Shown piece by piece: positions 1-64,000 of a DNA stretch of 64,000 nucleotides. The position numbers were made by a program, and so were the translations under genes. How positions within the stretch are numbered: the first letter of the stretch is position 1; the number at the start of each line of letters is the position of its first letter. The stretch lies in the NCBI GenBank assembly GCA_964429815.1, contig CAYSCM010000001.1, positions 96,001 to 160,000 of the forward strand. Reading direction: 5' to 3'. Below the pieces are notes generated by a model. That model made no database searches and was not told where the DNA came from. It saw only the letters and a list, made by a program, of their open reading frames with translations. The DNA comes from an uncultured Candidatus Saccharibacteria bacterium (lineage in GTDB: Bacteria > Patescibacteriota > Minisyncoccia > Phycocordibacterales > CAYSCM01).

Positions 1-700
<700 letters not shown>

Positions 701-16312: not shown

Positions 16313-16323
16313 GAAGAGTGGTC

Positions 16324-17632: not shown

Positions 17633-17673
17633 CAAAAAAACCGGGATATATCCCGGTTTTTTTGTTGAAGTCT

Positions 17674-17868: not shown

Positions 17869-17877
17869 GGATTCGCA

Positions 17878-18327: not shown

Positions 18328-18810
18328 TTAAATTTTTTCGCCGACGAGCTCTTCGATCTTCTTATCAAGTTCCGCCTCGGAGACCGGAACTTGTGCCTCC
18401 TCTTTGACGAGCTTGCGAAGTGTCGTGGTCGGTGTGACTTCTCGGACGCCAGCGACCATGCGCCTTGGGGCCATAGTCGATTCACGCACCGTAGTGATGA
18501 GAAGGTGGCGGAGAATATTCGAGTTTCCCCCAGCATCAGCTTTAAGTTCCGCCGCCATGAGAGGTGCCATCTCGAATTTCACCCATCCGAAATGCGTCGT
18601 GTTGAATTTGACAAGCTTTCCCGCGTTCTCCTTGGACATCGTGTACGAGAGATCAATCATTTTAGGAGCCTCCTCGGCGAGAATGACGCCGCCACGCCTT
18701 TCTATCTGTGACTTGAGCGAAGAAACCTCATGGGCAATATCCCCTTCCGAGAGGGTCGGAAGGAGGTGGTAGCCGAGTTCGTAGACTTTGGCGTCCGTCT
18801 CTTTTTCCAT
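18328..18810 (-). CDS. rpsF: 30S ribosomal protein S6 with C-terminal extension
   Basis: Canonical rpsF-ssb-rpsR context. N-terminal …KVYELGYHLLPTLSEGDIAHEVSSLKSQIERRGGVIL… fits the S6 fold pattern. ATG at 18808-18810. Confidence 0.7.
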   Translation of the reverse strand: MEKETDAKVYELGYHLLPTLSEGDIAHEVSSLKSQIERRGGVILAEEAPKMIDLSYTMSKENAGKLVKFNTTHFGWVKFEMAPLMAAELKADAGGNSNILRHLLITTVRESTMAPRRMVAGVREVTPTTTLRKLVKEEAQVPVSEAELDKKIEELVGEKI

Positions 18811-18856
18811 GTGGGTAGAGACTACCACGACCTCAGGAGGCGCGCAATTGAGCCCT

Positions 18857-25999: not shown

Positions 26000-28900
26000 T
26001 CAAAGTTTCGCTATCGCGATGTACACCGCTCCTGCGTCGAGTTCCACCGTATCTCCTGCGATGTCGGGCTCGAAGCGCACGTCCATGGCCCCGGTCTCGA
26101 GCTTAAGCTGGGAGAGGTACTCTTCGACGAGGTTTCGTCCGGGGGAATCCGCCCGCACGTTGATGAGGATGCGATCATTGGGTTTGAGGGCGAGTTCCTT
26201 GCGGGAATCCTGGATGGCGCGTACAAGTTCGCGAAAATCGCCTTCCCGCATAAGTTCCTTCGTGAGCGTGGTGTCGAGAGAAACGGGTTCCAAAAGCTTC
26301 TGGTCAACGAGGAATTTTTTGACATTAAGTTCTTCCTCAATAATGGAAAAAAACTCTGCGGGAATACGTTCCCGAGCGGTGAGTGAGGAGAGCGGTTGAC
26401 GCACCCGAATACCCACTTTCGCACGAGCCTCGAGACCGGCAGTCACGACGTCGCGAACCTCCTTCATCTGAGCAAGGAGCGTGAAATCGACATCGCCTGC
26501 CTTTGGCCATTCGAGAAGATGAACACTCTCCCCCTGCGCACCTACCGCAAGATGAATCTCTTCCGCAATGAAAGGCATGAGCGGGGCGACGAGCTTTGCG
26601 ACGATCGAGAGCGCCTCGCGTTGTCCTGCAAGCGCAAAGCGCTTGTCCGCCGCGTCAGTGCCTTTCACGCGCTCCCGAGAGCGGCGCAGGTACCACGTCG
26701 AATAGTCCTCGATAAACGCTCGTAGACTCCGACAGGCGCGCGGCGTATCGTAGCGCTCAAACGCGTCTGCCACTTCAGCCGTCGTCTCGTCGAGGCGCGC
26801 AAACATCCAGCGGTCGAGAATGTTGCGGCTTTGCCGAGCGTTCGTGGTGCGGTCGTCCTCTTTCCCGTACAGCTCGTAGAACTTGAGACAGTTCCGTAGC
26901 ATACCAACGACGCGATTATGGATGTCGCGCACGTCCTCGTCGCGGAATTGAATGTCTTCCGATTGCATGACGACGGAGCCCATGAGGTAGAAACGATACG
27001 CGTCAGCGCCGTAGCGATCGAGGAGCGTGAGCGGATCGGTGTAGTTGCCTTTCGACTTGCTCATTTTGTTGCCGTCCGCGGCCAGGATGTTCCCCGTCGA
27101 GACGACGTTTTTGAAGGAGGTACGCCCAAAGAGCGCGACCGCGACCGCGTGCATGTAGTAAAACCACGTGCGTGTCTGCGCGATGTACTCGGCGATAAAA
27201 TCGGCTGGGTAGCCACGGCGTCGACGCAAGAATCCGCTGCGTGGCTCGAAATGCGGGAGAGCGGAGCCGAGGTAGTGACTCTGGGCGAACGGCATCGAGC
27301 CGCTTTCGACCCAGCAGTCTATGACCTCGGGAATGCGCTCATACTCGCGTCCTTCCGCGTCGAGGAGCGTTAGGGTGTCGGTGTAGGGCCTGTGGAGGTC
27401 TATTTCGAACGCCTCATCGTGCGGCAGCGGCTTGAACGCAAAGACCTTAAACTCCGCGTTGTCGAGCCAGACGGCATCAAAACGGCCGACCTCGGAAGCG
27501 GTACGCGGTATAGAATTGCCGTGCACGAGCGCGTGAAGCTCTCGCAACGGCGATTCGTGCGAGACGATAAGGATGTTCTTCTTCGCGTAGCGTTGGTCGA
27601 CGTCGTAGATGAAGCGCCCTACCCGTACTCGTACATCGGTATAGTTTTCGCCGCCATCCGGCCGCTTCACGTACGCGACAGAAAATTCCCCGTAGAATTG
27701 GTGGTACGCCGAGACAGGTTTGCCGTCAAAAGTGCCTACGTTCACTTCGCTAAGGCGCTCATCGTAGATGATGTCGTTGGGAGAAATTCCCCACTGCTTC
27801 GCAAGAAGCTCCGCACTCTCTCGCGCACGCACGACGGGAGAAGCGAAGATGACGTCGGGCTTGTCGATGCGCGTACCTGCCTCACGGACCTGGAGCTCGC
27901 CGAGTTTCGTAAGATGATTATCCGCATCGGGGCGCGAGCTCACGAATCCCTCTTCGTTGCTCTTAGCCTGCCCATGGCGCATGATCGTGTAGCGATTCCC
28001 CGAGCCCTTTGCTCTTTCGCGAAGCTCGGCAAGAGAACCGATGACCAGTACGCGGGAACCCCCTTTCTCTTTCCAAATAGGAAGCGGCGATGCCCAGTAG
28101 CGATTGCGCGAGATGGTCCAATCGGGCGCGCTCTCGAGGATGTTCTTGAAGCGGCCGCGCTTCAGGTGCTCGGGAACCCAGGTTATCGTTTCGTTTTCGG
28201 AGAGCATCCTCTTCTTTATCTTTTGGATATTGATGAACCATGACGACACGGCGTTGTAGATGAGCGGCGTTCCGCAGCGGTAGCAGTGCGGGTAGGAGTG
28301 CGTATGCTGCTCCCGCGCGAAGAGGAGGCCACGTTTGTCGAGATCCGCCTTGATGTCTCCCTCGGCCTCCTTTATATAGCGCCCGTGGAGAAATTCCGGC
28401 ACGAGCTCGTTGTAGGCCGCCGATGGCGAGAGAAGCTGTATCATCGGGAGCCCCTCTTTCTGCCCTAGCGCAAAGTCATCCTCGCCGTACATGACGGCAG
28501 TATGGACGATCCCGGTCCCCTCCTTGGTCGAGACAAAATCAGCCGCGAGCACTTCGTGATGCTTCCCTGGGTGAGAGACGACCGGTGCCACCGCGTAGAG
28601 CGGCTCGTAGGTTATGCCGACGAGCTCGCTGCCTTTAAAGTCGCGCTCGGTGGAGTACGTCCGGCCGAGCGGAGCGAATGTTTTGTCGACGAGGTTTTTC
28701 GCGATGAGGTAGTGGGATCCTCCCGTCTCGGTAAAATTGAGTCCCTCCATCTCTTTCTTGCCTCGGTAGACCAGGCTGTAGTCGATGTCGGGCCCGACCG
28801 CAAGCGCGACGTTCCCCGGAAGCGTCCAGGGCGTCGTCGTCCACGCGAGGAGGTAGGTGTTCTCCGGAAGATTGTACGCGGTCGCGTTTGTTATTCTAAA

Positions 28901-29545
28901 GCGTACCGTTACCGCCTCCTCCGTGATGTCCTTGTAGGTGTGGTCCATCGCGATCTCAGCCTTAGCGAGCGGTGTTTCGCAGTGCGGACAGTACATGAGG
29001 ACACGCTTACCTTCGTAGAGAAGGCCTTTCCCGTTCATTTCCGAGAGCGCCCACCAAACGCTCTCGATGTAGTCGTTGTCCATCGTCTTGTAGGCGTCCT
29101 TGAACTCGACCCAGCGTCCGATGCGGTCCACGTAGCGCTCCCAATCGCTCGCGAACTGGAGCACGGAGGCACGCGCTTCGGCATTAAACTTAGCGACCCC
29201 TATTCTTTCAATGTCTTTCTTCGTTTTGAGGCCGAGCTTCTGCTCGATGAGCGTCTCGATAGGCAGCCCGTGGCAATCCCACCCCCACTGTCGAAGTACG
29301 CGGTAGCCGCGCATGGTCTTGTAGCGCGGGAATACATCTTTGACGACCGACGAGAGGAGGGATCCGTGGTGCGGAAGCCCGGTGGCGAACGGAGGGCCGT
29401 CATAGAAAATAAATTCCCCGCGGGGGGCGTCTTTTCCTTCGGATTTCTTGAAAATGCCGCGCTCTTTCCAGTATGCCAACACCTTCTCTTCCCGCGCCGC
29501 AGTATCGCTCTTTGCGGATTCGTGAGCCTTCATTGAGAGCTTCAT
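26000..29545 (-). CDS. ileS: isoleucyl-tRNA synthetase (type-2-like) with an inserted histidine-phosphatase (PGAM-like) domain
   Basis: HIGH region (…PPFATGLPHHGS…), CP1 editing domain (…WTTTPWTLPGNVALAV…), WTISRNRYWASPLPIW, KMSKSKGN, anticodon-binding domain. Between …VIGSLAELRERAKGSGN and DLHRPYTDTLTLLD…IPEVIDCWVESGSMP lies a ~200-aa block (approx. nt 27400-28000) with RHG (TIMRHGQAKSN) and SH (ILIVSHESPLREL) signatures of the histidine phosphatase superfamily. Start at 29545 or 29533. Confidence 0.9.
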   Translation of the reverse strand: MKLSMKAHESAKSDTAAREEKVLAYWKERGIFKKSEGKDAPRGEFIFYDGPPFATGLPHHGSLLSSVVKDVFPRYKTMRGYRVLRQWGWDCHGLPIETLIEQKLGLKTKKDIERIGVAKFNAEARASVLQFASDWERYVDRIGRWVEFKDAYKTMDNDYIESVWWALSEMNGKGLLYEGKRVLMYCPHCETPLAKAEIAMDHTYKDITEEAVTVRFRITNATAYNLPENTYLLAWTTTPWTLPGNVALAVGPDIDYSLVYRGKKEMEGLNFTETGGSHYLIAKNLVDKTFAPLGRTYSTERDFKGSELVGITYEPLYAVAPVVSHPGKHHEVLAADFVSTKEGTGIVHTAVMYGEDDFALGQKEGLPMIQLLSPSAAYNELVPEFLHGRYIKEAEGDIKADLDKRGLLFAREQHTHSYPHCYRCGTPLIYNAVSSWFINIQKIKKRMLSENETITWVPEHLKRGRFKNILESAPDWTISRNRYWASPLPIWKEKGGSRVLVIGSLAELRERAKGSGNRYTIMRHGQAKSNEEGFVSSRPDADNHLTKLGELQVREAGTRIDKPDVIFASPVVRARESAELLAKQWGISPNDIIYDERLSEVNVGTFDGKPVSAYHQFYGEFSVAYVKRPDGGENYTDVRVRVGRFIYDVDQRYAKKNILIVSHESPLRELHALVHGNSIPRTASEVGRFDAVWLDNAEFKVFAFKPLPHDEAFEIDLHRPYTDTLTLLDAEGREYERIPEVIDCWVESGSMPFAQSHYLGSALPHFEPRSGFLRRRRGYPADFIAEYIAQTRTWFYYMHAVAVALFGRTSFKNVVSTGNILAADGNKMSKSKGNYTDPLTLLDRYGADAYRFYLMGSVVMQSEDIQFRDEDVRDIHNRVVGMLRNCLKFYELYGKEDDRTTNARQSRNILDRWMFARLDETTAEVADAFERYDTPRACRSLRAFIEDYSTWYLRRSRERVKGTDAADKRFALAGQREALSIVAKLVAPLMPFIAEEIHLAVGAQGESVHLLEWPKAGDVDFTLLAQMKEVRDVVTAGLEARAKVGIRVRQPLSSLTARERIPAEFFSIIEEELNVKKFLVDQKLLEPVSLDTTLTKELMREGDFRELVRAIQDSRKELALKPNDRILINVRADSPGRNLVEEYLSQLKLETGAMDVRFEPDIAGDTVELDAGAVYIAIAKL

Positions 29546-29564
29546 TCTAGCCGCAATACGTGAA

Positions 29565-29597
29565 AGAAAAAAGCCGCCCCAGGGGTGCGGCGGCTTG
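29565..29597 (-). terminator. rho-independent terminator-like hairpin upstream of ileS
   Basis: AAGCCGCC…GGCGGCTT stem followed by a T-run on the minus strand, about 20 nt before the ileS start. Confidence 0.45.
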
Positions 29598-29629
29598 CGG
29601 GCCGACACTAGGGTGCCGGCCCGGGGACT

Positions 29630-55455: not shown

Positions 55456-55538
55456 GGAAGGGTGCTCCGAATGGTAAGGAACCGGTCTTGAAAACCGGCG
55501 CCCGCAAGGGCTTGTGGGTTCGAGTCCCACCCCTTCCG
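55456..55538 (+). tRNA. tRNA-Ser (anticodon TGA)
   Basis: Acceptor GGAAGGG/CCCTTCC, anticodon stem CCGGT/ACCGG with loop CTTGAAA, long variable arm (GCCC-gcaa-GGGC), T-arm GTGGG-TTCGAGT-CCCAC, discriminator G. Confidence 0.8.
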
Positions 55539-55541
55539 CAG

Positions 55542-57206
55542 ATGAATGCTACGATTATTTCCATGAACCCGCTTGCGGACGAGTTGCGCGCCGTCGTGAA
55601 GGGAGAGGTCCTCGATTCTCCCGAGGCACTCGAGCGCGCAAGTCGCGATGCCAGCCTCTTTCGCGTCGTGCCGGAGGTGGTAGTACAGCCGCGCGACGCG
55701 AATGATCTCTGCACACTTGTGCGGTTTGCGACAGAACAAAAAAAGGCCGGCCGTCACATCTCCCTCACGGCGCGCTCCGCGGGCACCGACATGAGCGGTG
55801 GCCCCTTGGGAGATTCCATCATTGTGGATATGACGGCGCACTTTACCCGCACCCTTGAGGTGGGAGAGGGGTACGCTATCGTCGAGCCAGGCGTCTATTT
55901 CCGCGACTTCGATGCGAAAACGGCCGAGAAAGGGCTTGAGCTTCCAAGTTATACCGCATCCCGGCGAATAAATACCGTAGGCGGTATGGTCGGCAACGAT
56001 TCCGGGGGCGAAAAAAACCTCAAGTACGGTAAAACCGCCCGCTACGTCGAGGAGTTGGAGGTAGTGCTTGCGGATGGCAAAACCCACACGCTTCGCGCCC
56101 TCGAGGGCAAGGCTCTCGGCAATAAACTGCGCGAGGAAAGCTTCGAAGGGGAACTCTACCGGAAGGTTGCAGCGCTCCTCCAAGAGCATCGTAGCGAAAT
56201 TGAACAGGCCAAGCCCGTCGTGTCGAAAAATTCCTCCGGCTATGCGCTGTGGGACATTGGCGACGGAAGCAGCCGGCTCGATCTCGCACGGCTCATGGTG
56301 GGCTCGCAAGGAACGCTTGGCATCGTGACCAAGATGCGCTTCAAGCTCGTACGCCCGAAGCCCTATTCGTCGATGCTCATCATCTTCCTGCGCGACCTTG
56401 CCGACCTGCGTGAGCTTGTTCCGGCTGCGCTTACCCACGGACCAGACAGCTTTGAAAGTTACGACGACAAGACCTTTTCGCTTGCCATACGATACTTCCC
56501 TGAATTCGCCGCGCAGCTTAAATCCGGCGTCCTCGGGCTCTTCCTCTCCTTTCTTCCCGAACTTTGGATGCTCCTGCGCGGTGGCGTCCCGAAGCTCGTT
56601 CTTCTCATAGAGTTTCGCGCCGAAACGCAAGCAGAAGCGTTTAATGCCACAAAGCGTCTGCAGACTGATATCGAAAAGCTCGGACTTCACGAAGCCATGC
56701 GCATCTCGCCCGACGAACGGCATTCGGGTAAATACTGGGCCATCCGCCGCGAGAGCTTCAACCTGCTGCGTAAAAAGGTGCGCGGCATGCGCACCGCTCC
56801 CTTTATCGACGATTTCGTGGTGCCCCCCTCCTCACTCCCTGAATTCCTTCCAAAACTTCAGGAGATCCTCTCGCGCTATGATCTTACCTACACCGTGGCG
56901 GGACACGTGGGTGACGGGAATTTTCACATCATTCCGCTCATCGACCCAAAGCGCGACGGTATAGCCGAGCTCATCGAGAAACTGAGCCACGAGGTGTATG
57001 AGCTCGTGCTTTCCTTCCATGGTTCAATAACCGGAGAACATAATGACGGGCTCGTGCGCACCCCGTGGGTCCCGAAAATGTTCGGCCCCGTCATGCTCTC
57101 ACTCTTTGTCGACGTGAAGAACATGTTCGACCCGCTCGGCATTTTCAACCCGGGGAAGAAAGTCGGGACGACCTTTGCGCAAGCACAGGCGCACCTTGAC
57201 CTATAA
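55542..57206 (+). CDS. FAD-linked oxidase (GlcD / D-lactate dehydrogenase-like, FAD_binding_4 + C-terminal oxidase domain)
   Basis: …VVQPRDANDLCTLVRFATEQKKAGRHISLTARSAGTDMSGGPLG…, …VEPGVYFRDFD…, C-terminal …HVGDGNFH…. ATG is 3 nt after tRNA-Ser. Confidence 0.8.
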   Translation: MNATIISMNPLADELRAVVKGEVLDSPEALERASRDASLFRVVPEVVVQPRDANDLCTLVRFATEQKKAGRHISLTARSAGTDMSGGPLGDSIIVDMTAHFTRTLEVGEGYAIVEPGVYFRDFDAKTAEKGLELPSYTASRRINTVGGMVGNDSGGEKNLKYGKTARYVEELEVVLADGKTHTLRALEGKALGNKLREESFEGELYRKVAALLQEHRSEIEQAKPVVSKNSSGYALWDIGDGSSRLDLARLMVGSQGTLGIVTKMRFKLVRPKPYSSMLIIFLRDLADLRELVPAALTHGPDSFESYDDKTFSLAIRYFPEFAAQLKSGVLGLFLSFLPELWMLLRGGVPKLVLLIEFRAETQAEAFNATKRLQTDIEKLGLHEAMRISPDERHSGKYWAIRRESFNLLRKKVRGMRTAPFIDDFVVPPSSLPEFLPKLQEILSRYDLTYTVAGHVGDGNFHIIPLIDPKRDGIAELIEKLSHEVYELVLSFHGSITGEHNDGLVRTPWVPKMFGPVMLSLFVDVKNMFDPLGIFNPGKKVGTTFAQAQAHLDL

Positions 57207-57875: not shown

Positions 57876-58586
57876 CTATTGCTCTTGAAAGCGCGGGACG
57901 ATTCCCACGGTGACCGCGCGGGAAACAGCACCACCGCCTGAGGCAATGCACGATAGCGTGTACGTGCTCTGTGAGGTGAGGGCTGGTGTATGGGTCGTGC
58001 CGGATAGGCCGGAGCTAGAGACTCCTGGCCCGGCAATGGAACAACCGGTGACGTTGCTTGCCGACCACGTGATGGTAGAGGCTTCACCCGAGCGGACAGT
58101 CGCCGGATTCGCCGTCACGGAAAGGCCTGCCGTGCTTACGGTGACATTCACGGTCGCTTGACTGCCGTTGCTGCAAACGAGAGTGTAGGTCGTGCTTGAG
58201 GAGGGCGTTACGTTGACATTTCCGGACGTAGCTCCGCCGGTCGAAAAGTTGCTACCCGAGGAGCTTGCGGAGTTAATGCAGCTCCAGGCGAGCTTCACGG
58301 TGCTTCCGGAAAGGATCGTAATACTTGAGCCCGAGCCGCCGCCACCCGGCGTCTGATCAGTGCCCGTAAAGGTTGGGGTGCACTCGCCTGCAATATGCGC
58401 ATAAGAAGGGCATGAAGCGGGAACGACGCCGCCTCCCGAAGCTCCATTTGGCGAGTACGCGACGACCCCGAGCTCTACCGAGTTTTCCGCGAGGGGAAAC
58501 GGGCTCTGTGTTGCCATGACGAGAAGTGCGACAACGCCAAGAGAAAAGATGAGGACGATTTCCCGGACGCCGAGAGATTTACCCAT
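57876..58586 (-). CDS. secreted Ser/Thr/Gly-rich protein with Ig-like repeats
   Basis: Signal anchor, repeated …TYTLVCSNGSQATVNVTV… / …TYTLSCIASGGGAVSRAVTV… beta-sandwich-like segments. Confidence 0.5.
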   Translation of the reverse strand: MGKSLGVREIVLIFSLGVVALLVMATQSPFPLAENSVELGVVAYSPNGASGGGVVPASCPSYAHIAGECTPTFTGTDQTPGGGGSGSSITILSGSTVKLAWSCINSASSSGSNFSTGGATSGNVNVTPSSSTTYTLVCSNGSQATVNVTVSTAGLSVTANPATVRSGEASTITWSASNVTGCSIAGPGVSSSGLSGTTHTPALTSQSTYTLSCIASGGGAVSRAVTVGIVPRFQEQ

Positions 58587-58622: not shown

Positions 58623-59345
58623 TCAGTTCTCAACAAGGGCTAGGTTGCGAGCGATCGCGCTCCTCATTTCGGAAACACCGTGCGCTGCGACGGCTGGGTC
58701 ATTGCCGGGATACGCTCTATCCCACTGCTCCGGCGTGAGTTTTGTGGCTGCAACTTTGGCCGCGAGAAATTCCTGCCGCGCCTCTTCCCTTTTGCCGAGG
58801 TTGAGGAGGGCCGAACCATGCGAGAGGAGGAGCCATGGGTTCGCAGCATCAAACTGGAGTGCGTAGCGCGTCTGCGCCTCAGCCTCGGCAAATCTTCCCT
58901 GCGAGAAATACATCCAGGCGAGGTCATTATTGGCGGCCCAATTATGCGGATCCCAGGAGAGAAACGTTTGGAAATCCTTCTGCGCCGCCGGGTAGTTTTT
59001 CTGGTAGCCCTCAATAAGCCCCCGAATGTAGTAGGAGGCCATAAGCGAATTTCCGTGAAGTTCGAGTTGTTTGTTGATCTTCACGAGCGCCGAATCGAAA
59101 TTCCCTCGTAAAAAATCGATGCGCGCGAGCTGATGCCACGCATCAGGCACCGAGGGATCAAGCGCAAGCGCCTTCTCAAAATAGTTCTGCGCACGATCGA
59201 GGTCATACTCCCCTTTTCCATCAACATTAAAGTAGTAGTTTCCGCGTTCGAGTGCCTGCTTCGCTGTGAGTGAGATGGGGACTGTGAGAAAAGCTCCCAC
59301 CCCCCAAAAAGCCAAAATTGAGAAGCCCAAAATCCATTTCATCAA
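58623..59345 (-). CDS. TPR-repeat protein, secreted
   Basis: Signal peptide and 4-5 TPR units (…AWHQLARIDFLRGNFDSALVKINKQLELHG… etc.). Confidence 0.75.
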   Translation of the reverse strand: MMKWILGFSILAFWGVGAFLTVPISLTAKQALERGNYYFNVDGKGEYDLDRAQNYFEKALALDPSVPDAWHQLARIDFLRGNFDSALVKINKQLELHGNSLMASYYIRGLIEGYQKNYPAAQKDFQTFLSWDPHNWAANNDLAWMYFSQGRFAEAEAQTRYALQFDAANPWLLLSHGSALLNLGKREEARQEFLAAKVAATKLTPEQWDRAYPGNDPAVAAHGVSEMRSAIARNLALVEN

Positions 59346-59484
59346 GTAATTGTACGACAGAGACCCTTGAAATCCTTCTTTCCTATTGGGAAATATCGAA
59401 GTGTCTTGACAAAACTACAAAAAAGGTTATAGTGGTTTCCAGATAGGCTCTCGCGGTGAGAGCCCCAACCAGGAGTATCTTTCC

Positions 59485-59961
59485 ATGAAAATCGCCTTCT
59501 TGGGGTTCATCGCGGCTCTCGCCGCGCTGAGCTCCCCCACTCTTGCGTCGGACCCCGTTCCTGTAAACGAGGCGCCGTACGCGAAGAAGCTTCGTCCCGT
59601 GCAGCTCGCGGCCGATCCGGCCATGCCAACCAAGGCGCCGATGGGCCAGGATCTCATGAATATCTTGGCCATCTGTTCGACAAAGTCTCCGGGCGGCATT
59701 CCGGGTCGGTACTCTGCGGGACGCAGCGGTCGCACCTGGATCCATGTGAGCCGGGATGCCAGCGGTAAGTTCATCGTCAAGACCAAGAACGACTTTTCCA
59801 TCTTGGTCCTCACCGAGGTCAACAGTTATTCGGTGAACGGCATGAACATCACCGTCAAGACGATGCAGACGACCTGGACCGCTAGCTACGATCCCGGCTC
59901 GAAGAGCCTGTCGGGCTCCATGCCGGGCGGTACGCTCACATACGACCTCAGCGGCTGTTGA
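59485..59961 (+). CDS. small secreted protein (158 aa), hypothetical
   Basis: Signal peptide MKIAFLGFIAALAALSSPTLASD. Confidence 0.5.
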   Translation: MKIAFLGFIAALAALSSPTLASDPVPVNEAPYAKKLRPVQLAADPAMPTKAPMGQDLMNILAICSTKSPGGIPGRYSAGRSGRTWIHVSRDASGKFIVKTKNDFSILVLTEVNSYSVNGMNITVKTMQTTWTASYDPGSKSLSGSMPGGTLTYDLSGC

Positions 59962-59987
59962 GGTTCCTGCCCGACAAACGAAACCAG

Positions 59988-60018
59988 GGCACGATTCGCT
60001 AGAATCGTGCCTTTTTTT
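59988..60018 (+). terminator. rho-independent terminator (GGCACGATTC-gcta-GAATCGTGCC-TTTTTTT)
   Basis: Perfect 10-bp stem plus T7 run, 27 nt after the stop at 59961, at the composition boundary. Confidence 0.7.
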
Positions 60019-60061
60019 CTTTAACTGTTTGCTTCAGGCAATTGAGCTTCTATACTATTTT

Positions 60062-61492
60062 ATGAAAATGACCGAGGAACTTAAAACGATTTTTTATTAC
60101 AACGTACTTGAAGGAATAGAAAAACTGGTTCCGAAGTTTGTTTTTGATGAAAATAGAATTGCTCGTAATGACACTTCTTTCAAGGTCTACTTGCAAACAC
60201 TAAAACTCTATACGAGGATTCTAACTTCTCTGGACCAACAAACCGACTCTCTGTATCGAAAATTCGAGGAGAAGCGCCTGCGTAAGATATTCGAACTTGC
60301 GAACCAAACCACTTGGTGGCAACAATATTTTAGAAAGCACAACATTAATCCTTCTCTGCTCCGAAGCCTCGCCGATCTTGCTCTCATTCCACCTATTTCG
60401 CGATTTGATCTCGTAGATCTCCCCAAAAAAGATCTCCTCCTTTTTTCTGAAAACGACCCACACCTAGTATGGAGAAGTTCTGGCGGAAGCACTACCGGCA
60501 CTCCATTTCAATGGGCTCTCAATAAAAATCTACTTACATTTCATGTAATGGCTAGATTCGTCACTGCCTTTGAAGAGCACTCCCTATCTTTTGATACTTT
60601 TGCTACCAAAGGAGCTTATACGGAAATTAATTATCCACATGGATCCCATCGTTCCGAATTTAAATGGTTTTCGATTGGAGACTATTTTGCGTGGAGTGAC
60701 GAAAAAGAAAGCGGATCAAAATTGAATCATCTTGTCTCAATTCTTCAAAAGAATGAGCCTTTAATAGTCCGCATAATTCCAAGTGAACTTCATTGGCTTA
60801 CGGGAGAGTTTAAAGAAAAGAACCTCTCCATTCCTGTAGCTCTTTTTTCAGTTACAGGACAGCAGCTGCAACCCGGAGTTAGAAAACTTGCTGAAGATTA
60901 TTTTAAATGTCCCGTGCTCGTCCATTATGGAGCTCAGGAGATGGGGCCTCTATCGCTCGAATGTAAAGATGTGCATGGTTACTACCACATTTTTCGCGAG
61001 CGTGTAATTGTGGAAATTCTTGATACCGAGGGCAGATCTGTGCCCCCAGGTAGTGAGGGAAACCTCACAATAACAGTTCTCGACAACACCGCCATGCCTC
61101 TTATCCGTTACCAGCCCGGTGATTTGGCTGCGCTCCATACTGATATTTCCTGTTCTTGTCGTAATAGATCACCACTTTTGGAGATCCGAAGTCGATCTAC
61201 CGACGTATTTAAATTCGACAATGGAGAGATCCTGCCAGCAAGAAATGTTTTAAGAATTTTTGGTAGTGAACCACTTGTTTCTTTAGTAAAACGGTTTCAG
61301 GTACGTCAAGAACAGTTTAATTCCTGCGCCATTTTAATCCAACCTCGCGATTCGATATCCGAGAATGTTATATCTATACTTCGAAACAAGCTGCATGCGT
61401 TTTATGGAGGGAAACTCAAGGTCACGATTAAAGTAGTACACCATCTCCAACAAGATGGGAGGAAGTTTAAGGTGTTTGTGCCATTGAAATAG
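60062..61492 (+). CDS. CapK/PaaK-like adenylate-forming enzyme (phenylacetate-CoA ligase / coenzyme F390 synthetase family)
   Basis: Family-typical …WRSSGGSTTGTPFQWA… phosphate-binding motif, with …YQPGDLAAL… and C-terminal subdomain. Start at MKMTEEL (60062) or MLQAIE (60029). AT-rich. Confidence 0.65.
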   Translation: MKMTEELKTIFYYNVLEGIEKLVPKFVFDENRIARNDTSFKVYLQTLKLYTRILTSLDQQTDSLYRKFEEKRLRKIFELANQTTWWQQYFRKHNINPSLLRSLADLALIPPISRFDLVDLPKKDLLLFSENDPHLVWRSSGGSTTGTPFQWALNKNLLTFHVMARFVTAFEEHSLSFDTFATKGAYTEINYPHGSHRSEFKWFSIGDYFAWSDEKESGSKLNHLVSILQKNEPLIVRIIPSELHWLTGEFKEKNLSIPVALFSVTGQQLQPGVRKLAEDYFKCPVLVHYGAQEMGPLSLECKDVHGYYHIFRERVIVEILDTEGRSVPPGSEGNLTITVLDNTAMPLIRYQPGDLAALHTDISCSCRNRSPLLEIRSRSTDVFKFDNGEILPARNVLRIFGSEPLVSLVKRFQVRQEQFNSCAILIQPRDSISENVISILRNKLHAFYGGKLKVTIKVVHHLQQDGRKFKVFVPLK

Positions 61493-61494
61493 GA

Positions 61495-62286
61495 TTAGTT
61501 TGGAAATTCTGCGAGTTCGCACAGGCGATCATAGAGATTTTGAATTTTTTTTGGAACACTCGTGGATACAAATGTTCGTTTCCTTTCTGGTTTTATACTT
61601 TCGGTATTAATTTTTCCTCCAATTACGTTCGCCAACTTGTTGAGTCCGTCCGGAGAATAGAGCTGGTCTAAATGCATGAATAGCCATGAATCGCCCTTTT
61701 TAAAATGTTTTTCCAAGATGTGCTCATTAAGGCAAAACCAAGCTTCTAAACTCTTTTCATAGTTAATTTTAAACTCTTTCATAAGTTCAAACTCATCTAC
61801 AAACCTAAGAATACTCCGCGCCGTCTCTGCCGGATGTCTAAACATACAAACGAAGGTGGTTTTAGGAATAAAGGGTTTCCAAGCGCTTAGAGTGTAAGAA
61901 AATCGTGGATCTTTTAGGCAAAAGGGTGTTTTCTGAACCTGCCTTAAGATCTCTTGCTCCTGCGTTTTGGTGGCAATAATGGGTTTATCAAGGGGAATGC
62001 GTGCCAACCAGCGTTGCCATCGCTTAGGAATATGAAAATAGTTAGAATCATGTTCGTGTGGTCGTGCAGGCACTACATTCGACAGAATATCCTCATTAAT
62101 CGATCGAATGCTTATCGACTCAAAGGTTCCATCGGGATTTGAAACTCTCGGCGGAACAAACTCACCCCCAGAATAGTAGTGCGGGTTTCCCCTTATAATT
62201 GCTCCCGCCGCGGCACTTGTGCCACTCCTTCCACACCCAAGCACGATGACATTTCTCATTCGGCGATTATACCTGAGGAAATTCAA
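61495..62286 (-). CDS. sulfotransferase-family protein
   Basis: PAPS 5'-phosphate-binding loop …VIVLGCGRSGTSAAAGA… near the N-terminus and a …RHPAETARS… 3'-phosphate-binding-like region. Confidence 0.6.
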   Translation of the reverse strand: MNFLRYNRRMRNVIVLGCGRSGTSAAAGAIIRGNPHYYSGGEFVPPRVSNPDGTFESISIRSINEDILSNVVPARPHEHDSNYFHIPKRWQRWLARIPLDKPIIATKTQEQEILRQVQKTPFCLKDPRFSYTLSAWKPFIPKTTFVCMFRHPAETARSILRFVDEFELMKEFKINYEKSLEAWFCLNEHILEKHFKKGDSWLFMHLDQLYSPDGLNKLANVIGGKINTESIKPERKRTFVSTSVPKKIQNLYDRLCELAEFPN

Positions 62287-62330
62287 TATATGCGATTTTC
62301 CTAGGAAAGGATTTAAAATGAAAGAAGTGG

Positions 62331-62555
62331 ATGGAGGAACCTATGTCGGAACAAACAATCTCCCCGAGACTTTACGCCTGGATTGTATGGACTACACTCT
62401 GCGCCACTGTTCTTTTTACAGCCAGCGCTTGGTGGATAACAGACGGAGATGTCAAAGCGATTTTTACAACTTTTACTCTTTCGATGGTGCTAATCCAACT
62501 CGTTCTTTGGTTGTGCGTTTTTTTTCTCAAAAAACACCCCTTTTTCTCCAAGTGA
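62331..62555 (+). CDS. small two-TM membrane protein (74 aa), uncertain
   Basis: Hydrophobic ORF in the gap between sulfotransferase and oxidase. Its 3' end overlaps the convergent oxidase gene by ~66 nt, which lowers confidence. Confidence 0.25.
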   Translation: MEEPMSEQTISPRLYAWIVWTTLCATVLFTASAWWITDGDVKAIFTTFTLSMVLIQLVLWLCVFFLKKHPFFSK

Positions 62556-64000
62556 AGTACTTGATACCTCGGGAAACCGAGGTTCTTTTTTTCTAAGTAG
62601 TGGTATATACCTGCCAGGGGAAATGATATCTCGTGAATCGATGGCTTCTTTTATTTTTTTTGCAACTTTCCAAAACTCTACGTCTTCTTTAACTACAAGG
62701 TGCATATGCTTTGCTGTCGCCCTTTGAATCTGTGCTCCAGCTTCTTTTGTACGATACGCGAGCATCTCATAACATGCGTGTGCTCTCTGAGTCTCCTCCG
62801 GGGAGCTCTTATTGAAAAGAATAGTACAAGAGATGAAAAGTGTCCGATCCGAAAAGTTCAAAAGGTTTATAATGGGATCGATTTGAAACTTTGCTAATAT
62901 TTCATGCGCAATAGTCAAAAAACGATTAATATTAGTTTTCTGCATTGGGAGAACCGTCGCAAAGAGAATAAATCCACATTCTGGATCAGAGTCATAATTT
63001 AAATTTTTATTTAAGAAATTCTCCCGATCAAGGGGGGACATCCCTCCAATTTTTTTCCAAAAGGGAAGTATCGGATTTCTAGCCGAATGATTTCCTTCAA
63101 TCGAACTCAAATATGAAATCACCATAGGCATAAATGCTAGGTGTTTTTGAAACCATCCTGGAGTAATTTTTTTGAGTAAACGTAACCAAAAGCTGAGGTT
63201 TGAGGAAAAAAAACTTATCCGTGACGAATGGGGGTGATAAAAATCGTAGACCGTACGCCGAGCCGCCTTGACGACCGATCGAGGTCCTTGAATACTTCCA
63301 AAGACGATCCATTCAGAAAGCCCATTTTTTCGCAAGTATATACGAGCAATATGTTCATGTATTGCCCTTCCCGATGCGGCGTACTCTTTTTTATATTCTG
63401 TCAACCTCGTCAAAGTTCTACCTGGACCCTGAATCTTAATTGCTGGGACGATTCCAGGTAATCGTTGCAATACTTCTCGAGAGGCATCAACGATGTCCCC
63501 GACAGCATCGTTTTGTTTTGTAATAATGAAGAAAGTTTCCGTATATTCCTGTTTGCGCGAGAGAGCAAATGTTGCCCTTGTTACAATGCCCAAGTTGCTT
63601 TGCGCAAAGAGTCCATCGATATACGGACCAACTCCCCATTTGTAGAAGGCATCCGATATTTCTTTATCTGGATCAATAAGCGGAGATTTATACACATCTC
63701 CGTTAGGAAGTACCACCTCAATTCCAATTAGAGACGAAAACCGGTCGACGGGCATAGTTGCACTAAGTCCACGTTCAAGCATATTTCCAATAAGGCTCGA
63801 TGACGGTCCGGCACCCGTAAGAGGGGGTAAAAATTCAATCTTATGCTTGGTAAGAAAATGCTCGAGCTCTCCCGTAGTAACTCCGGGTTCAACGGTAATA
63901 AAACCTAGGTCGGCATGCGGTGCAGTGATTTTCTTCATATTAGATAGATCAAGAATCACCGCACCTTCAATGGGTGGGGTCGCGCTACCATAGCCCCAAT
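62490..64000 (-). CDS. FAD-linked oxidase (FAD_binding_4 / PCMH-type), N-terminus beyond window end
   Basis: …GYGSATPPIEGAVILDLSNMKKITAPHADLGFITVEPGVTTGELEHFL… is the FAD-binding PCMH signature. The frame is open to nt 64000 with no stop, so the gene is truncated by the window. Confidence 0.7.
   Translation of the reverse strand, partial: WGYGSATPPIEGAVILDLSNMKKITAPHADLGFITVEPGVTTGELEHFLTKHKIEFLPPLTGAGPSSSLIGNMLERGLSATMPVDRFSSLIGIEVVLPNGDVYKSPLIDPDKEISDAFYKWGVGPYIDGLFAQSNLGIVTRATFALSRKQEYTETFFIITKQNDAVGDIVDASREVLQRLPGIVPAIKIQGPGRTLTRLTEYKKEYAASGRAIHEHIARIYLRKNGLSEWIVFGSIQGPRSVVKAARRTVYDFYHPHSSRISFFSSNLSFWLRLLKKITPGWFQKHLAFMPMVISYLSSIEGNHSARNPILPFWKKIGGMSPLDRENFLNKNLNYDSDPECGFILFATVLPMQKTNINRFLTIAHEILAKFQIDPIINLLNFSDRTLFISCTILFNKSSPEETQRAHACYEMLAYRTKEAGAQIQRATAKHMHLVVKEDVEFWKVAKKIKEAIDSRDIISPGRYIPLLRKKEPRFPEVSSTSLGEKGVFFEKKNAQPKNELD

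What the first reader, a model, noticed from the sequence alone, without database searches (positions are those of the whole stretch)
59980..64000. AT-rich island encoding a CapK/PaaK-like adenylating enzyme, a sulfotransferase and an FAD-linked oxidase: candidate acquired modification/biosynthetic cluster
- Downstream of a strong terminator at 59988-60018 the base composition changes abruptly. By eye the coding sequence is clearly AT-rich and the third-position bias differs from the preceding 60 kb.
- The genes are not housekeeping:
  - an ANL/PaaK-family adenylate-forming enzyme (SSGGSTTGTPF P-motif), of the kind found as CapK in capsule / amino-acid-sugar ligation loci;
  - a PAPS-dependent sulfotransferase (GCGRSGTS loop);
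  - a small membrane ORF;
  - a PCMH-type FAD oxidase running off the window edge.
- Activation (adenylation), oxidation and sulfation together suggest synthesis or tailoring of a sulfated glycan, lipid or small molecule. Such clusters are unusual in streamlined CPR-like genomes.
- The upstream neighbours are secreted TPR / Ig-like proteins.
Basis: partly seen in the sequence, partly recalled or inferred. Interest (0 to 1): 0.72.

Follow-up and report, generated by a model that had tools for sequence, protein, structure and literature searches.

The report
Foreign-composition peptide-modification gene cluster in CPR bacterium
The AT-rich stretch at the end of the window is real and is the first 4 kb of a 9.2-kb gene cluster of foreign base composition that most likely modifies a small ribosomally made peptide rather than a sugar or lipid, and it belongs to a cluster family already reported in candidate-phyla-radiation bacteria, though with unusual accessory enzymes.

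Summary

- **Composition.** GC falls from 0.558±0.017 to 0.417 at about 60,020. GC3 falls from 0.67 to 0.36.
- **Not a misassembly.** Two independent single-run assemblies reproduce the junction with 0 mismatches.
- **Extent.** One of those contigs shows a 9.2-kb island (window-equivalent 60,021 to about 69,250). It ends at a tRNA-Arg(GCG).
- **Beyond the window.** The island also encodes:
  - a 376-aa membrane protein;
  - a 103-aa precursor-like peptide, with a TM leader, a TSAD motif, and a core rich in Tyr, Gly, Ser and Cys that ends in CC;
  - a SagD-type YcaO with a C-terminal PxPxP motif;
  - an AMMECR1–(α/α)6-toroid fusion.
- **Family.** This architecture recurs in more than 30 CPR/Patescibacteria loci. 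It matches the linear azol(in)e-peptide clusters already reported in CPR.
They form the tailoring end of the cluster. A PaaK-like ligase and a VAO/PCMH-type flavoenzyme occur as a pair in five loci. The sulfotransferase is seen only here.
- **Origin.** Syntenic relatives (L041, L005) carry a homologous cluster at the same locus, next to tRNA-Arg, S20 and RuvA (L041 also keeps the TPR flank). The island therefore looks like an in-situ swap for a low-GC allele, not a new insertion.
- **Novelty and interest.** New variant of a known kind; moderate interest.

The parts
59986..60023 (+). Intrinsic-terminator-like hairpin plus T-run after the 158-aa gene. It marks the left compositional boundary of the island.
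   Evidence: L002 9925-9952 plus T-run; L002 coordinate + 50,061 = window coordinate. RNAfold -22.4 kcal/mol. The GC profile switches here.
60062..61492 (+). PaaK-like (ANL superfamily) adenylate-forming enzyme, 476 aa, with the P-loop SSGGSTTGTPF. It is one half of a recurrent tailoring pair with the FAD oxidase.
   Evidence: PDB phenylacetate-CoA ligases at E=3.5e-16 and 4e-14; NCBIfam hits are far below the equivalog cut-offs. The exact protein lies on three independent contigs. Homologs at 43-45% identity sit next to FAD-oxidase homologs in L034 and L035, and at 28-31% in L005 and L041.
61495..62259 (-). PAPS-type sulfotransferase, 254 aa, with GCGRSGTS as the 5'-PSB loop and R141-x-P143-x5-S149 as the 3'-PB motif. 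It is present only in this copy of the cluster.
   Evidence: Sulfotransfer_3 at 26.3 bits against a cut-off of 27; 1,666 representatives with E<=1e-3; invariant motif residues; weak profile hits to a PDB sulfotransferase (5x2b), TPST1 and the CurM sulfotransferase; no homolog in the other loci examined (L004-L037). Its GC3 of 0.40 matches the rest of the island.
62331..62555 (+). Its status as a gene is unsupported.
   Evidence: No homolog in any related locus. It overlaps the 3' end of the FAD-oxidase gene. The gene caller chose a different frame. Codon-position GC is not informative.
62490..64000 (-). VAO/PCMH-type (4-phenol oxidoreductase-like) FAD flavoenzyme. The window holds the C-terminal ~503 codons of a 579-aa gene that ends at window-equivalent 64,229.
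   Evidence: FAD_binding_4 at 69 bits for the full protein; p-cresol methylhydroxylase E=3e-46; vanillyl-alcohol/eugenol oxidases 1e-28 to 1e-34; at the phenolate-pocket positions equivalent to PCMH Y95/Y473/R474 (residue roles recalled from memory, not checked here), this protein has Y/Q/R.
59485..59961 (+). 158-aa secreted protein of host-like composition that abuts the island. A positional counterpart exists in syntenic relatives.
   Evidence: GC3 0.79. 36% identical to the 194-aa protein at the same position in L041. Weak similarity to the 152-aa protein at the same position in L034.
58623..59345 (-). TPR protein with an N-terminal hydrophobic segment. It has host-like composition but is a conserved neighbour of this cluster family.
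   Evidence: TPR families; homologs at 31-45% identity within 10 kb of the YcaO/AMMECR1 genes in 14 other loci. 67% identity in syntenic L041.
57876..58586 (-). 236-aa Ser/Thr/Gly-rich Ig-like surface protein with an N-terminal TM segment. It is found next to the TPR gene in several related loci.
   Evidence: matches in L034, L021 and L024, each adjacent to the TPR homolog. No Pfam family.

Best explanation
**What it is.** The AT-rich stretch is the tailoring end of a 9.2-kb RiPP-type (ribosomally synthesised, post-translationally modified peptide) gene cluster. It spans window-equivalent 60,021 to about 69,250, which is L002 ~9,960-19,190.

**Gene order.** PaaK-like ligase (+), then on the minus strand: sulfotransferase, VAO/PCMH-type flavoenzyme, a 376-aa single-TM helical-repeat protein, a 103-aa precursor peptide, YcaO, and an AMMECR1-(α/α)6-toroid fusion. 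The cluster ends at a tRNA-Arg(GCG).

**Inferred mechanism.**
1. The precursor has a basic N-terminus, one TM helix, a conserved [A/T/V]-x-A-D junction, and a 50-aa anionic core: TPYSQSTYYGQSGYYGQSSYYSESGYGFAEGGGGGGSCEASVQGGGLECC.
2. The SagD-type YcaO, working with the AMMECR1-toroid protein, uses ATP to activate backbone amides at Cys/Ser residues and form thiazoline/oxazoline rings.
3. No SagB dehydrogenase is present, so the rings probably stay at the azoline level.
4. The PaaK-like adenylating enzyme and the 4-phenol-oxidoreductase-like flavoenzyme act as a paired tailoring module. One possible target is the Tyr-rich repeats; another is an aromatic acyl unit.
5. The PAPS-type sulfotransferase adds sulfate to a hydroxyl group. 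Tyr is one candidate.

**Origin.** The cluster has the composition of a low-GC donor. It nevertheless lies at a locus where syntenic relatives carry a divergent homologous cluster. It was therefore most likely acquired by replacing a resident cluster through recombination in conserved flanks, between tRNA-Arg/S20/RuvA on one side and the 158-aa/TPR genes on the other.

**Shown versus inferred.**
- Shown: composition, extent, gene families, the recurrent architecture, synteny.
- Inferred: every chemical step, the substrate of each tailoring enzyme, and the route of acquisition.

**What the confidence covers.** The figure of 0.7 is for the core claim: a peptide-modification cluster of foreign composition. 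The specific chemistry is less certain: azoline formation about 0.5, Tyr-directed tailoring about 0.25, in-situ replacement about 0.6.
For: **Composition and assembly.**

**Extent and content.**

**YcaO.**
- Pfam YcaO E=1.5e-47 and TIGR03604 SagD family E=4e-53.
- The C-terminal P-H-P-F-P motif is invariant in 29 homologs.
- PMC12338566 calls PxPxP the canonical motif of azoline-forming YcaO enzymes.

**Family distribution.** There are 114 YcaO relatives. Every one that carries an organism name is CPR. Of 30 genome loci, 25 are titled as CPR/Patescibacteria lineages, four only as 'bacterium' or 'Patescibacteria group', and one as Polyangiaceae.

**AMMECR1-toroid coupling to YcaO.**
- The gene lies directly upstream of YcaO in about 14 loci.
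- The two genes overlap by 8 nt here and by 4 nt in L041.
- P0242 fuses both into one 1,056-aa protein.

**Precursor peptides.**
- Seventeen small ORFs sit right after YcaO or the AMMECR1 gene. All have a TM leader, an xxAD motif, a core with at least 2 Cys and 0-1 Lys/Arg, and 10 of 17 end in Cys. One more follows the fused protein.
- The 103-aa frame has island-like GC3 (0.32). The frame the gene caller chose has 0.55.

**Tailoring pair.** PaaK-like and FAD-oxidase genes occur together in this island and in L005, L041, L034 and L035.

**Tyr-rich cores.** YYGQS-type cores occur only in the three loci that combine YcaO, PaaK-like and FAD-oxidase genes.

**FAD oxidase.** It is related to PCMH and VAO.

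**Same-locus synteny.** L041 and L005.
- Flank proteins are 65-77% identical to L041; cluster proteins are 31-48%.
- Cluster proteins are roughly equidistant among four genomes.
- GC in L041 is nearly uniform.

**Prior report.** LAP clusters in CPR: PMC7298704.
Against: - No E1-like or Ocin-ThiF partner, no SagB dehydrogenase, no protease and no transporter is encoded in the island. It is therefore not a canonical LAP/TOMM cluster, and heterocycle formation is unproven.
- Two loci (L034, L035) have the AMMECR1-toroid gene, the peptide, the TM protein, the PaaK-like gene and the FAD oxidase but no YcaO. Their cores also lack Tyr. YcaO chemistry may therefore not be central to the family, and Tyr may not be the target of the tailoring pair.
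- The FAD oxidase has Gln where PCMH has Tyr473.
- The sulfotransferase family is typically fused or adjacent to GT2 glycosyltransferases. No PAPS-synthesis gene lies in the 73 kb available.
- Every precursor has an N-terminal TM helix, which is unusual for released RiPPs.
- No close relative with an empty site or a high-GC allele could be found, so the replacement scenario rests on composition and synteny only.
- The host's CPR affiliation is inferred from relatives, not tested directly.
Confidence: 0.7

Rival explanations
1. The adenylating enzyme, the sulfotransferase and the FAD oxidase together build or tailor a sulfated glycan, lipid or small molecule, in the manner of a CapK-type capsule or amino-sugar locus. 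They are unrelated to the neighbouring peptide genes.
For: - Relatives of the sulfotransferase are often fused to, or sit beside, GT2 glycosyltransferases and methyltransferases.
- Its closest relative, P0243 (59% identity), is followed by a nucleotidyltransferase/APS-kinase gene.
- The L034 homolog of the PaaK-like protein has a weak CapK_C hit.
- A Nitrosomonas homolog of the FAD oxidase lies among N-acyl amino acid synthase genes, not peptide genes.
Against: - No glycosyltransferase, sugar-nucleotide, lipid or export gene lies in the 9.2-kb island.
- The PaaK-like/FAD-oxidase pair is found in five loci, always beside the AMMECR1-toroid gene, an xxAD peptide and the TM376 protein.
- All seven island genes share one composition.
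Confidence: 0.12
2. The cluster is native and vertically inherited at this locus. Its low GC reflects relaxed or different selection on accessory genes, not horizontal transfer.
For: - Homologous clusters occupy the same tRNA-Arg/S20/RuvA locus in L041 and L005; L041 also keeps the TPR flank.
- In several other genomes the cluster is also somewhat lower in GC than its flanks: L004, L022, L026, L013, L034.
Against: - GC3 is 0.36 against 0.67, with boundaries sharper than 100 bp at both ends.
- The closest syntenic relative, L041, has a cluster of near-native composition.
- Cluster proteins are no closer to L041 than to more distant genomes, although flank proteins are. The PaaK-like protein is closest to L034/L035.
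Confidence: 0.12
3. Assembly artefact: a chimeric join of two organisms at about 60.0 kb.
For: The abrupt change in composition, taken alone.
Against: - The left junction is reproduced with 0 mismatches in contigs assembled separately from two sequencing runs. One of those contigs also returns to host composition and host genes (tRNA-Arg, S20, RuvA, Mur ligase) on the far side.
- Both flanks are syntenic with L041.
Confidence: 0.02
4. The small ORF is not a released natural-product precursor. It is a membrane-anchored surface peptide or protein, and its modified acidic tail stays on the cell, for example for attachment to a host cell. The AMMECR1-toroid protein, not YcaO, would be the key modifying enzyme.
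For: - Every precursor has an N-terminal TM helix.
- There is no protease or exporter in the island.
- YcaO-less variants exist.
- The conserved neighbours are surface or secreted proteins: TPR, Ig-like, TM376.
Against: - The conserved A-x-A-D junction looks like a processing site.
- YcaO, PAPS-dependent and ATP-dependent enzymes are cytoplasmic.
- No direct evidence exists either way.
Confidence: 0.2

Closest known systems
Linear azol(in)e-containing peptide (LAP/TOMM) clusters, as reported in CPR genomes by Sharrar et al. 2020 (PMC7298704). Classical examples are microcin B17, streptolysin S and phazolicin.
   Same: - A SagD-type YcaO with a PxPxP C-terminus sits next to a small ORF with a Gly/Ser/Cys-rich core.
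- Most relatives of this YcaO (21 of 30 loci, plus L041 and L005) have a SagB-type nitroreductase beside it, as in the published CPR clusters.
   Different: - This copy has no SagB dehydrogenase, no E1-like or Ocin-ThiF partner, no peptidase and no transporter.
- The conserved partner is an AMMECR1-(α/α)6-toroid fusion. No paper in the searchable library links AMMECR1 with YcaO, cyclodehydratases or RiPP biosynthesis.
- The leader contains a TM helix and an xxAD motif.
- The accessory enzymes are a PaaK-like ligase, a VAO/PCMH-like flavoenzyme and a sulfotransferase.
p-Cresol methylhydroxylase, vanillyl-alcohol oxidase and eugenol oxidase (4-phenol oxidoreductases of the VAO/PCMH family)
   Same: Full-length homology (E=3e-46 to PCMH). 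The FAD_binding_4 domain is present. The residues equivalent to PCMH Tyr95 and Arg474 are conserved.
   Different: - Identity is about 30% or lower.
- The Tyr473 equivalent is Gln.
- There is no cytochrome subunit gene.
- The protein has a ~38-aa C-terminal extension.
- It sits in a peptide-modification cluster, not an aromatic-catabolism context.
Phenylacetate-CoA ligase (PaaK), PaaK-like ligases (e.g. AjiA1), CapK, and coenzyme F390 synthetase
   Same: The ANL P-loop and core motifs are present. The best solved relatives are PaaK enzymes. NCBIfam gives partial hits to PaaK, FlxY and F390 synthetase.
   Different: All curated equivalog cut-offs are missed by a wide margin (for example 60 bits against 646). 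There are no paa or capsule genes nearby. The acceptor and the acid substrate are unknown.
Tyrosylprotein sulfotransferases (TPST; RaxST acting on the RiPP RaxX) and glycan sulfotransferases of the Sulfotransfer_3 family
   Same: PAPS-binding motifs are present. A profile of the family hits TPST1 weakly (E~1e-4). A Tyr-rich peptide is encoded in the same island. The RaxST/RaxX parallel is recalled from memory, not tested here.
   Different: Similarity to TPST is marginal and equal to that for a PDB sulfotransferase entry (5x2b). Relatives are mostly in glycosyltransferase contexts. No relation to RaxST was tested.
AmmeMemoRadiSam system (AMMECR1 + Memo + radical SAM)
   Same: It contains an AMMECR1 domain (TIGR04335 E=4.5e-15, below cut-off). 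The AMMECR1 fold is confirmed by the model.
   Different: No Memo or radical-SAM gene is present. The AMMECR1 domain is fused to an N-terminal β-rich domain and a C-terminal toroid, and it is coupled to YcaO.

Membership tests
YcaO-dependent azol(in)e RiPP (LAP/TOMM) cluster | YcaO-domain enzyme with ATP/Mg-binding motifs | tested here: met
   Pfam YcaO at 162.9 bits. TIGR03604 SagD at 180.7 bits, below its 219 cut-off. The E150/E153/R154 (GELLER) and E266/Q269/R270/D271 (ELIQRD) residues are invariant in 29 homologs. Assigning these residues to ATP binding rests on my own knowledge of YcaO structures.
YcaO-dependent azol(in)e RiPP (LAP/TOMM) cluster | C-terminal PxPxP motif of azoline-forming YcaOs | tested here: met
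   The protein ends in ...PHPFP, and this is invariant in alignment A1. The motif's meaning is taken from PMC12338566.
YcaO-dependent azol(in)e RiPP (LAP/TOMM) cluster | Adjacent precursor peptide with a leader and a Cys/Ser/Thr-rich core | tested here: met
   A 103-aa ORF lies 50 bp downstream of YcaO. Its core has 3 Cys and 11 Ser/Thr. It has 16 counterparts with the same layout. Prediction only.
YcaO-dependent azol(in)e RiPP (LAP/TOMM) cluster | E1-like (C protein) or Ocin-ThiF (F protein) partner carrying the leader-recognition element | tested here: not met
   No such Pfam or NCBIfam family was found in any island ORF. An AMMECR1-toroid protein occupies the partner position instead.
YcaO-dependent azol(in)e RiPP (LAP/TOMM) cluster | FMN-dependent SagB-type azoline dehydrogenase | tested here: not met
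   tblastn with the L005 SagB-like protein found nothing in the window or L002. It found hits in 21 of 30 related loci. SagB is also present in L041.
YcaO-dependent azol(in)e RiPP (LAP/TOMM) cluster | Azol(in)e heterocycles in the product | not testable with these tools
   Needs mass spectrometry of the modified peptide.
ANL / PaaK-like adenylate-forming enzymes | P-loop and core motifs, and homology to solved PaaK enzymes | tested here: met
   The SSGGSTTGTPF motif aligns to the PaaK P-loop. PDB 9s3l E=3.5e-16 over residues 90-400.
ANL / PaaK-like adenylate-forming enzymes | Membership of a curated functional family (PaaK, F390 synthetase, FlxY, CapK) | tested here: not met
   All NCBIfam scores (32-93 bits) are far below their cut-offs (300-800). 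Pfam AMP-binding scores 22 bits against 29.9.
PAPS-dependent sulfotransferases (Sulfotransfer_3) | 5'-PSB loop and 3'-PB motif | tested here: met
   G8-x-G10-R-S-G-T-S15 is nearly invariant (at least 90%) and R141, P143 and S149 are invariant across 38 relatives. The Pfam score of 26.3 is just under the cut-off of 27.
PAPS-dependent sulfotransferases (Sulfotransfer_3) | Tyrosine (peptide) acceptor, as in TPST or RaxST | tested here: inconclusive
   The family profile hits TPST1 at E~1e-4, equal to a PDB sulfotransferase entry (5x2b). Relatives lie mostly in glycan contexts.
VAO/PCMH 4-phenol oxidoreductases | FAD_binding_4 domain plus full-length homology to PCMH, VAO or eugenol oxidase | tested here: met
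VAO/PCMH 4-phenol oxidoreductases | Phenolate-binding Tyr/Tyr/Arg triad (PCMH Y95, Y473, R474; residue roles recalled from memory) | tested here: inconclusive
   This protein has Y/Q/R. L041 and L034 have Y/Y/R. L035 has Y/H/R.
Integrase-mobilised genomic island | Deviant composition and a tRNA at one boundary | tested here: met
   tRNA-Arg(GCG) lies at L002 19,201-19,273, directly after the island.
Integrase-mobilised genomic island | Integrase or recombinase gene and flanking direct repeats | tested here: not met
   No such gene is among the island ORFs. No repeat links the two boundaries. The only repeat of note is a 19-nt copy of the tRNA 3' end, 157 nt further on the host side.
Integrase-mobilised genomic island | Site empty in related genomes | tested here: not met
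   Syntenic relatives L041 and L005 have a homologous cluster at the same site. No closer relatives were found.
AmmeMemoRadiSam system | AMMECR1 together with Memo and a radical-SAM protein | tested here: not met
   Only the AMMECR1 domain is present.

The most novel reading that the evidence does not exclude
**Reading.** AMMECR1-(α/α)6-toroid proteins, not YcaO, would define a new class of peptide-modification systems specific to the candidate phyla radiation.
- Its substrates would be membrane-anchored, anionic, Cys-containing peptides with an A-x-A-D junction.
- YcaO, SagB, the PaaK-like/VAO-like pair and, in this island, a sulfotransferase would all be optional add-ons.

**Consequences if true.**
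- It would give the AMMECR1 domain, whose function is unknown, its first biochemical context.
- This island would encode a sulfated, Tyr-modified azoline peptide displayed on or released from an episymbiont's surface.
Probability: 0.25. Interest if true: 0.8.

Novelty: new variant of a known kind. Interest (0 to 1): 0.55.

Why it matters
- **Specialised metabolism in CPR.** CPR bacteria have tiny genomes and few biosynthetic clusters. Modified peptides are among the few candidates for how they interact with hosts or competitors.
- **A fast-swapping locus.** The cluster sits at a conserved chromosomal site, and divergent alleles are exchanged there between lineages of different GC content. That pattern is typical of bacteriocin-like or surface-interaction loci under diversifying selection.
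- **A lead on AMMECR1.** The repeated coupling of an AMMECR1-toroid protein to YcaO, including a natural fusion, gives a concrete, testable hypothesis for a domain of unknown function that also occurs in humans.
- **Annotation blind spot.** Standard gene callers miss or mis-frame the precursor peptides, so this family is under-annotated.

Tried and rejected
- **Exact-protein look-ups with the longest-ORF starts** failed. The ATG starts 60,062 and 62,259 were the recorded gene calls.
- **Empty-site search.** Metagenome scans with the 200-aa flank protein and with the TPR protein found no close relatives. An empty-site or high-GC-allele test was therefore not possible.
- **Homolog search with the AMMECR1 fusion** returned one hit only, the fused P0242. 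Homologs were taken from fetched loci instead.
- **Structure prediction.**
  - A single-sequence model of the fusion was useless (pLDDT 37).
  - An 8-sequence alignment of proteins registered through cluster look-up worked (pLDDT 87).
  - The AFDB fold library was unavailable.
- **Canonical class II terpene cyclase: rejected.** There is no DxDD motif.
- **FAD oxidase as a SagB substitute: disfavoured.** L005 and L041 have both enzymes, and L034 and L035 have the FAD oxidase without YcaO.
- **Strict link between the FAD oxidase and Tyr-rich cores: weakened.** L034 and L035 have Tyr-free cores.
- **The 41-aa gene call as precursor: rejected** in favour of the 103-aa frame, on GC3 and homology.
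- **No hit to the APS-kinase-like protein of L038** in the 73 kb available. This is not informative for the whole genome.

Full report
**1. Observation**

The composition change is real.
- In 2-kb windows, GC stays at 0.49-0.60 up to 60 kb and is 0.41-0.43 from 60 to 64 kb.
- The last 3,982 bases have GC 0.417. 4-kb windows elsewhere give 0.558±0.017 (minimum 0.521).
- The tetranucleotide L1 distance to the rest of the window is 0.495, against 0.167±0.035 (maximum 0.311).
- Third-position GC is 0.37, 0.40 and 0.36 for the three genes in the window. Twelve host genes give 0.665±0.054.
- The switch falls right after a 12-bp-stem hairpin with a T-run at 59,986-60,023 (-22.4 kcal/mol).

The ORFs are as described.
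- A PaaK-like ANL enzyme: PDB PaaK E=3.5e-16, with NCBIfam PaaK/FlxY/F390 hits far below cut-off.
- A Sulfotransfer_3 protein: 26.3 bits against a cut-off of 27.
- A FAD_binding_4 oxidase that runs off the window.
- The 74-aa 'membrane ORF' has no support beyond being open.

**2. Not a chimera, and the true extent**

The exact sulfotransferase and PaaK-like proteins are on record on an NCBI contig of 501,704 bp. They are also on contigs assembled separately (Logan) from two sequencing runs.
- The 30-kb contig (L002) is identical to the window over 13,939 bp.
- The 2.1-kb contig (L003) covers 59,407-61,520 with no mismatch.

L002 continues past the window.
- GC stays at about 0.42 until L002 ~19,190 (window-equivalent ~69,250).
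- It then returns to 0.58-0.60.
- A tRNA-Arg(GCG) lies at the boundary. A 200-aa gene, S20, RuvA and a Mur ligase follow.
- The island is therefore 9.2 kb, and all seven genes share GC3 of 0.32-0.40.

**3. What the rest of the island encodes**

Beyond the FAD oxidase (579 aa in full) lie four more genes.
- A 376-aa protein with one N-terminal TM helix and a helical-repeat body. It matches no Pfam family.
- A 103-aa ORF.
- A 510-aa YcaO: Pfam E=1.5e-47; TIGR03604 SagD family E=4e-53.
- A 616-aa protein with an AMMECR1 domain. Its stop overlaps the YcaO start by 8 nt.

The YcaO ends in PHPFP, which is invariant in 29 homologs. PxPxP is described as the canonical motif of azoline-forming YcaO enzymes (PMC12338566).

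The 103-aa ORF reads MRSLGQLVINALSLASLVVFIFFTNLLNKDSSAAVPSVGNLGGLAVPNV-TSAD-TPYSQSTYYGQSGYYGQSSYYSESGYGFAEGGGGGGSCEASVQGGGLECC.
- The public gene call in this spot is a 41-aa ORF in another frame.
- The 103-aa frame has island-like GC3 (0.32 against 0.55) and has homologs.

**4. The family**

The YcaO has 114 relatives at 26-48% identity.
- Every one that carries an organism name is CPR/Patescibacteria.
- Of 30 genome loci, 25 are titled as CPR/Patescibacteria lineages, four only as 'bacterium' or 'Patescibacteria group', and one as Polyangiaceae.

Across those loci, plus five more reached through other proteins:
- The AMMECR1 fusion lies directly upstream of YcaO in about 14 loci.
- One genome fuses both into a single 1,056-aa protein, P0242.
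- A TM376 homolog follows in at least 12 loci.
- A SagB-type nitroreductase is present in 21 of 30 loci.
- A small ORF follows YcaO or the AMMECR1 gene in 17 loci, and one more follows the fused protein. Each has the same layout: a basic N-terminus, one TM helix, an [A/T/V]-x-A-D motif usually followed by x-P, then a 20-71-aa core with at least 2 Cys, 0-1 Lys/Arg, many Gly/Ser/Asp/Glu, and a C-terminal Cys in 10 of 17.

This is the kind of cluster Sharrar et al. 2020 described as linear azole peptide (LAP) clusters in CPR. They reported 110 clusters in 93 further genomes, 89 of them with a nitroreductase beside YcaO (PMC7298704). No paper in the searchable library links AMMECR1 with YcaO, cyclodehydratases or RiPP biosynthesis.

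**5. The three genes of the finding**

*FAD oxidase.*
- It is specifically a VAO/PCMH 4-phenol-oxidoreductase relative: p-cresol methylhydroxylase E=3e-46; vanillyl-alcohol/eugenol oxidases 1e-28 to 1e-34.
- At the PCMH phenolate-pocket positions Y95/Y473/R474 (roles recalled from memory) it has Y/Q/R. Cluster-associated relatives have Y/Y/R or Y/H/R.
- Its closest relatives (39-40% identity) sit in clusters with this order: AMMECR1-toroid, xxAD peptide, TM376, PaaK-like (opposite strand), FAD oxidase.
- The PaaK-like proteins there are 43-45% identical to this one.
- The pair also occurs in L005 and L041.

*The pair as a module.*
- It is a recurrent tailoring module of this peptide-cluster family.
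- L034 and L035 lack YcaO, and their cores lack Tyr.
- The three loci that combine YcaO with the pair all have YYGQS-type Tyr-rich cores.
- A Tyr (4-alkylphenol) target is therefore attractive but not established.

*Sulfotransferase.*
- It has no counterpart in the other loci examined (L004-L037), and none was annotated or matched in L041.
- Its family has 1,666 representatives at E<=1e-3. The PAPS-binding motifs are conserved.
- Relatives are often fused to GT2 glycosyltransferases or sit beside them.
- The closest relative (59% identity) is followed by a nucleotidyltransferase/APS-kinase gene.
- Profile hits to solved structures are weak and tie between a PDB sulfotransferase entry (5x2b) and TPST1.
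- Its composition matches the rest of the island, so it came with the island or from a similar donor.

**6. The AMMECR1 fusion**

An AlphaFold model built from an 8-sequence alignment is confident (pLDDT 87, pTM 0.84). It shows three parts.
- A β-rich N-terminal domain (residues ~19-110).
- An AMMECR1 fold: Foldseek 1zq7/1vaj at E~1e-9.

It has no DxDD motif and no Cys/His zinc site. The invariant residues cluster in GTGKIFEVLA, GGFRHD and WIDSxGH. Its activity remains unknown. Its role as the YcaO partner is inferred from adjacency, overlapping genes and the natural fusion.

**7. How it got there**

There is no integrase and no repeat linking the two ends. The only repeat of note is a 19-nt copy of the tRNA-Arg 3' end, 157 nt further on the host side.

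The locus is conserved in relatives.
- L041, a 402-kb metagenome contig, has this order: Mur ligase, RuvA, S20, a 201-aa gene, tRNA-Arg(GCG), SagB, AMMECR1-toroid, YcaO, a 103-aa Tyr-rich peptide, TM371, PaaK-like, FAD oxidase, two extra genes, a 194-aa gene, TPR, tRNA-Ser, RuvX, tRNA_bind. This matches both flanks of the island here.
- L005 has RuvA, S20, three tRNA-Arg genes, SagB, and then the cluster.

Protein identities between this genome and L041:

| Region | Proteins | Identity to L041 |
|---|---|---|
| Flanks | Mur ligase, RuvA, S20, TPR, 160-aa protein, RuvX | 65-77% |
| Cluster | AMMECR1 fusion, YcaO, peptide, TM376, PaaK-like, FAD oxidase | 31-48% |

- Cluster proteins are about equally distant among four genomes: YcaO is 48-51% for every pair.
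- The PaaK-like protein is closest to L034/L035.
- L041 has nearly uniform GC.
- The TPR gene on the GC-rich side is a conserved neighbour of the cluster in 14 other loci.
- Several other genomes also show the cluster as a low-GC patch.

The best reading is replacement of a resident cluster by a divergent allele from a low-GC CPR donor, through recombination in the conserved flanks. I could not find closer relatives to test this directly.

**8. Host**

The window also holds the 5' end of a 23S rRNA, several aminoacyl-tRNA synthetases, FtsK, and large surface proteins. Assignment to CPR/Patescibacteria is inferred from the named relatives of the cluster and of the flanking TPR protein. It was not tested directly.

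**9. Verdict**

- The interpretation as an acquired biosynthetic cluster is right in outline. It is wrong about the likely substrate and incomplete about the extent and the mode of acquisition.
- The cluster belongs to a known kind, CPR YcaO/LAP-type RiPP clusters. It is an unusual variant in five respects:
  - no SagB, E1-like partner, protease or exporter;
  - an AMMECR1-toroid partner;
  - a TM-anchored leader;
  - a PaaK-like/VAO-like tailoring pair;
  - a unique sulfotransferase.
- All chemistry is inferred.

Noticed in passing
window 26000-29608 (-): A 1,202-aa IleRS-like class I aminoacyl-tRNA synthetase carries a histidine-phosphatase (His_Phos_1) domain at residues 542-700, inserted between parts of the catalytic core.
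   Followed up: no
window 1-692 (-): The window starts inside a 23S rRNA gene: the first 604 model positions are present and the gene is cut by the window edge. It could be used to place the host phylogenetically.
   Followed up: no
window 55456-57206 (+): A GlcD-like FAD oxidase of host composition. Its longest ORF and public gene call start inside tRNA-Ser (55,456-55,538), so the real start is probably the Met at 55,542. The gene is absent at the matching position in the syntenic relative L041.
   Followed up: partly
L002 19259-19277 and 19416-19434 (window-equivalent ~69,320-69,495): The last 15 nt of tRNA-Arg(GCG) plus 4 nt are repeated (18 of 19) 157 nt further on the host side. This may be a relic attachment site of an older integration at this tRNA.
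   Followed up: partly
L002 15363-15690; L043 9257-9737: Public gene calls miss the precursor peptides. A 41-aa ORF here and a 99-aa ORF in L043 were called in the wrong frame, over the true TM-leader/xxAD/Cys-rich ORFs.
   Followed up: yes
L034 1157-7669; L035 2337-8823: Versions of the cluster without YcaO: AMMECR1-toroid, an xxADVP peptide with an acidic two-Cys core, TM376, PaaK-like and FAD oxidase. This suggests YcaO is optional in the family.
   Followed up: partly
L035 634-2295 and 155-637; L005 14012-15388; ten other loci: A phosphoribosyltransferase-PQQ β-propeller fusion (homologs in L034 and 10 GTDB loci besides L035) and a rhodanese (L034, L035 and 4 GTDB loci) are further conserved neighbours of the cluster family. 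Both are absent from this window and from L002.
   Followed up: partly
L043 4473-9171 (NCBI GCA_964361175.1): AMMECR1-toroid and YcaO are fused in one 1,056-aa protein (P0242). A second YcaO plus a nitroreductase are transcribed divergently next to it, and a weak M50-peptidase hit lies nearby.
   Followed up: partly
L045 6005-10711 (Nitrosomonas, CP054389.1): A 35%-identical homolog of the FAD oxidase lies between Acetyltransf_5 and FeeM-type N-acyl amino acid synthase genes and a PEP-CTERM protein. This may hint that the subfamily acts on acylated aromatic amino acids.
   Followed up: no
window ~11250-12250: The lowest 1-kb GC outside the island (0.459) lies around the ORF at 11,407-12,174 (-). 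It could be another small patch of atypical composition.
   Followed up: no
window 57910-58356 (+) versus 57876-58586 (-): In L041 the gene caller placed two short ORFs (68 and 60 aa) on the strand opposite to the 236-aa Ig-like ORF here, and these match the window at 59-61% identity. The strand of the real gene in this GC-rich stretch is therefore not fully settled. The 236-aa frame has protein-level matches in L034, L021 and L024.
   Followed up: partly
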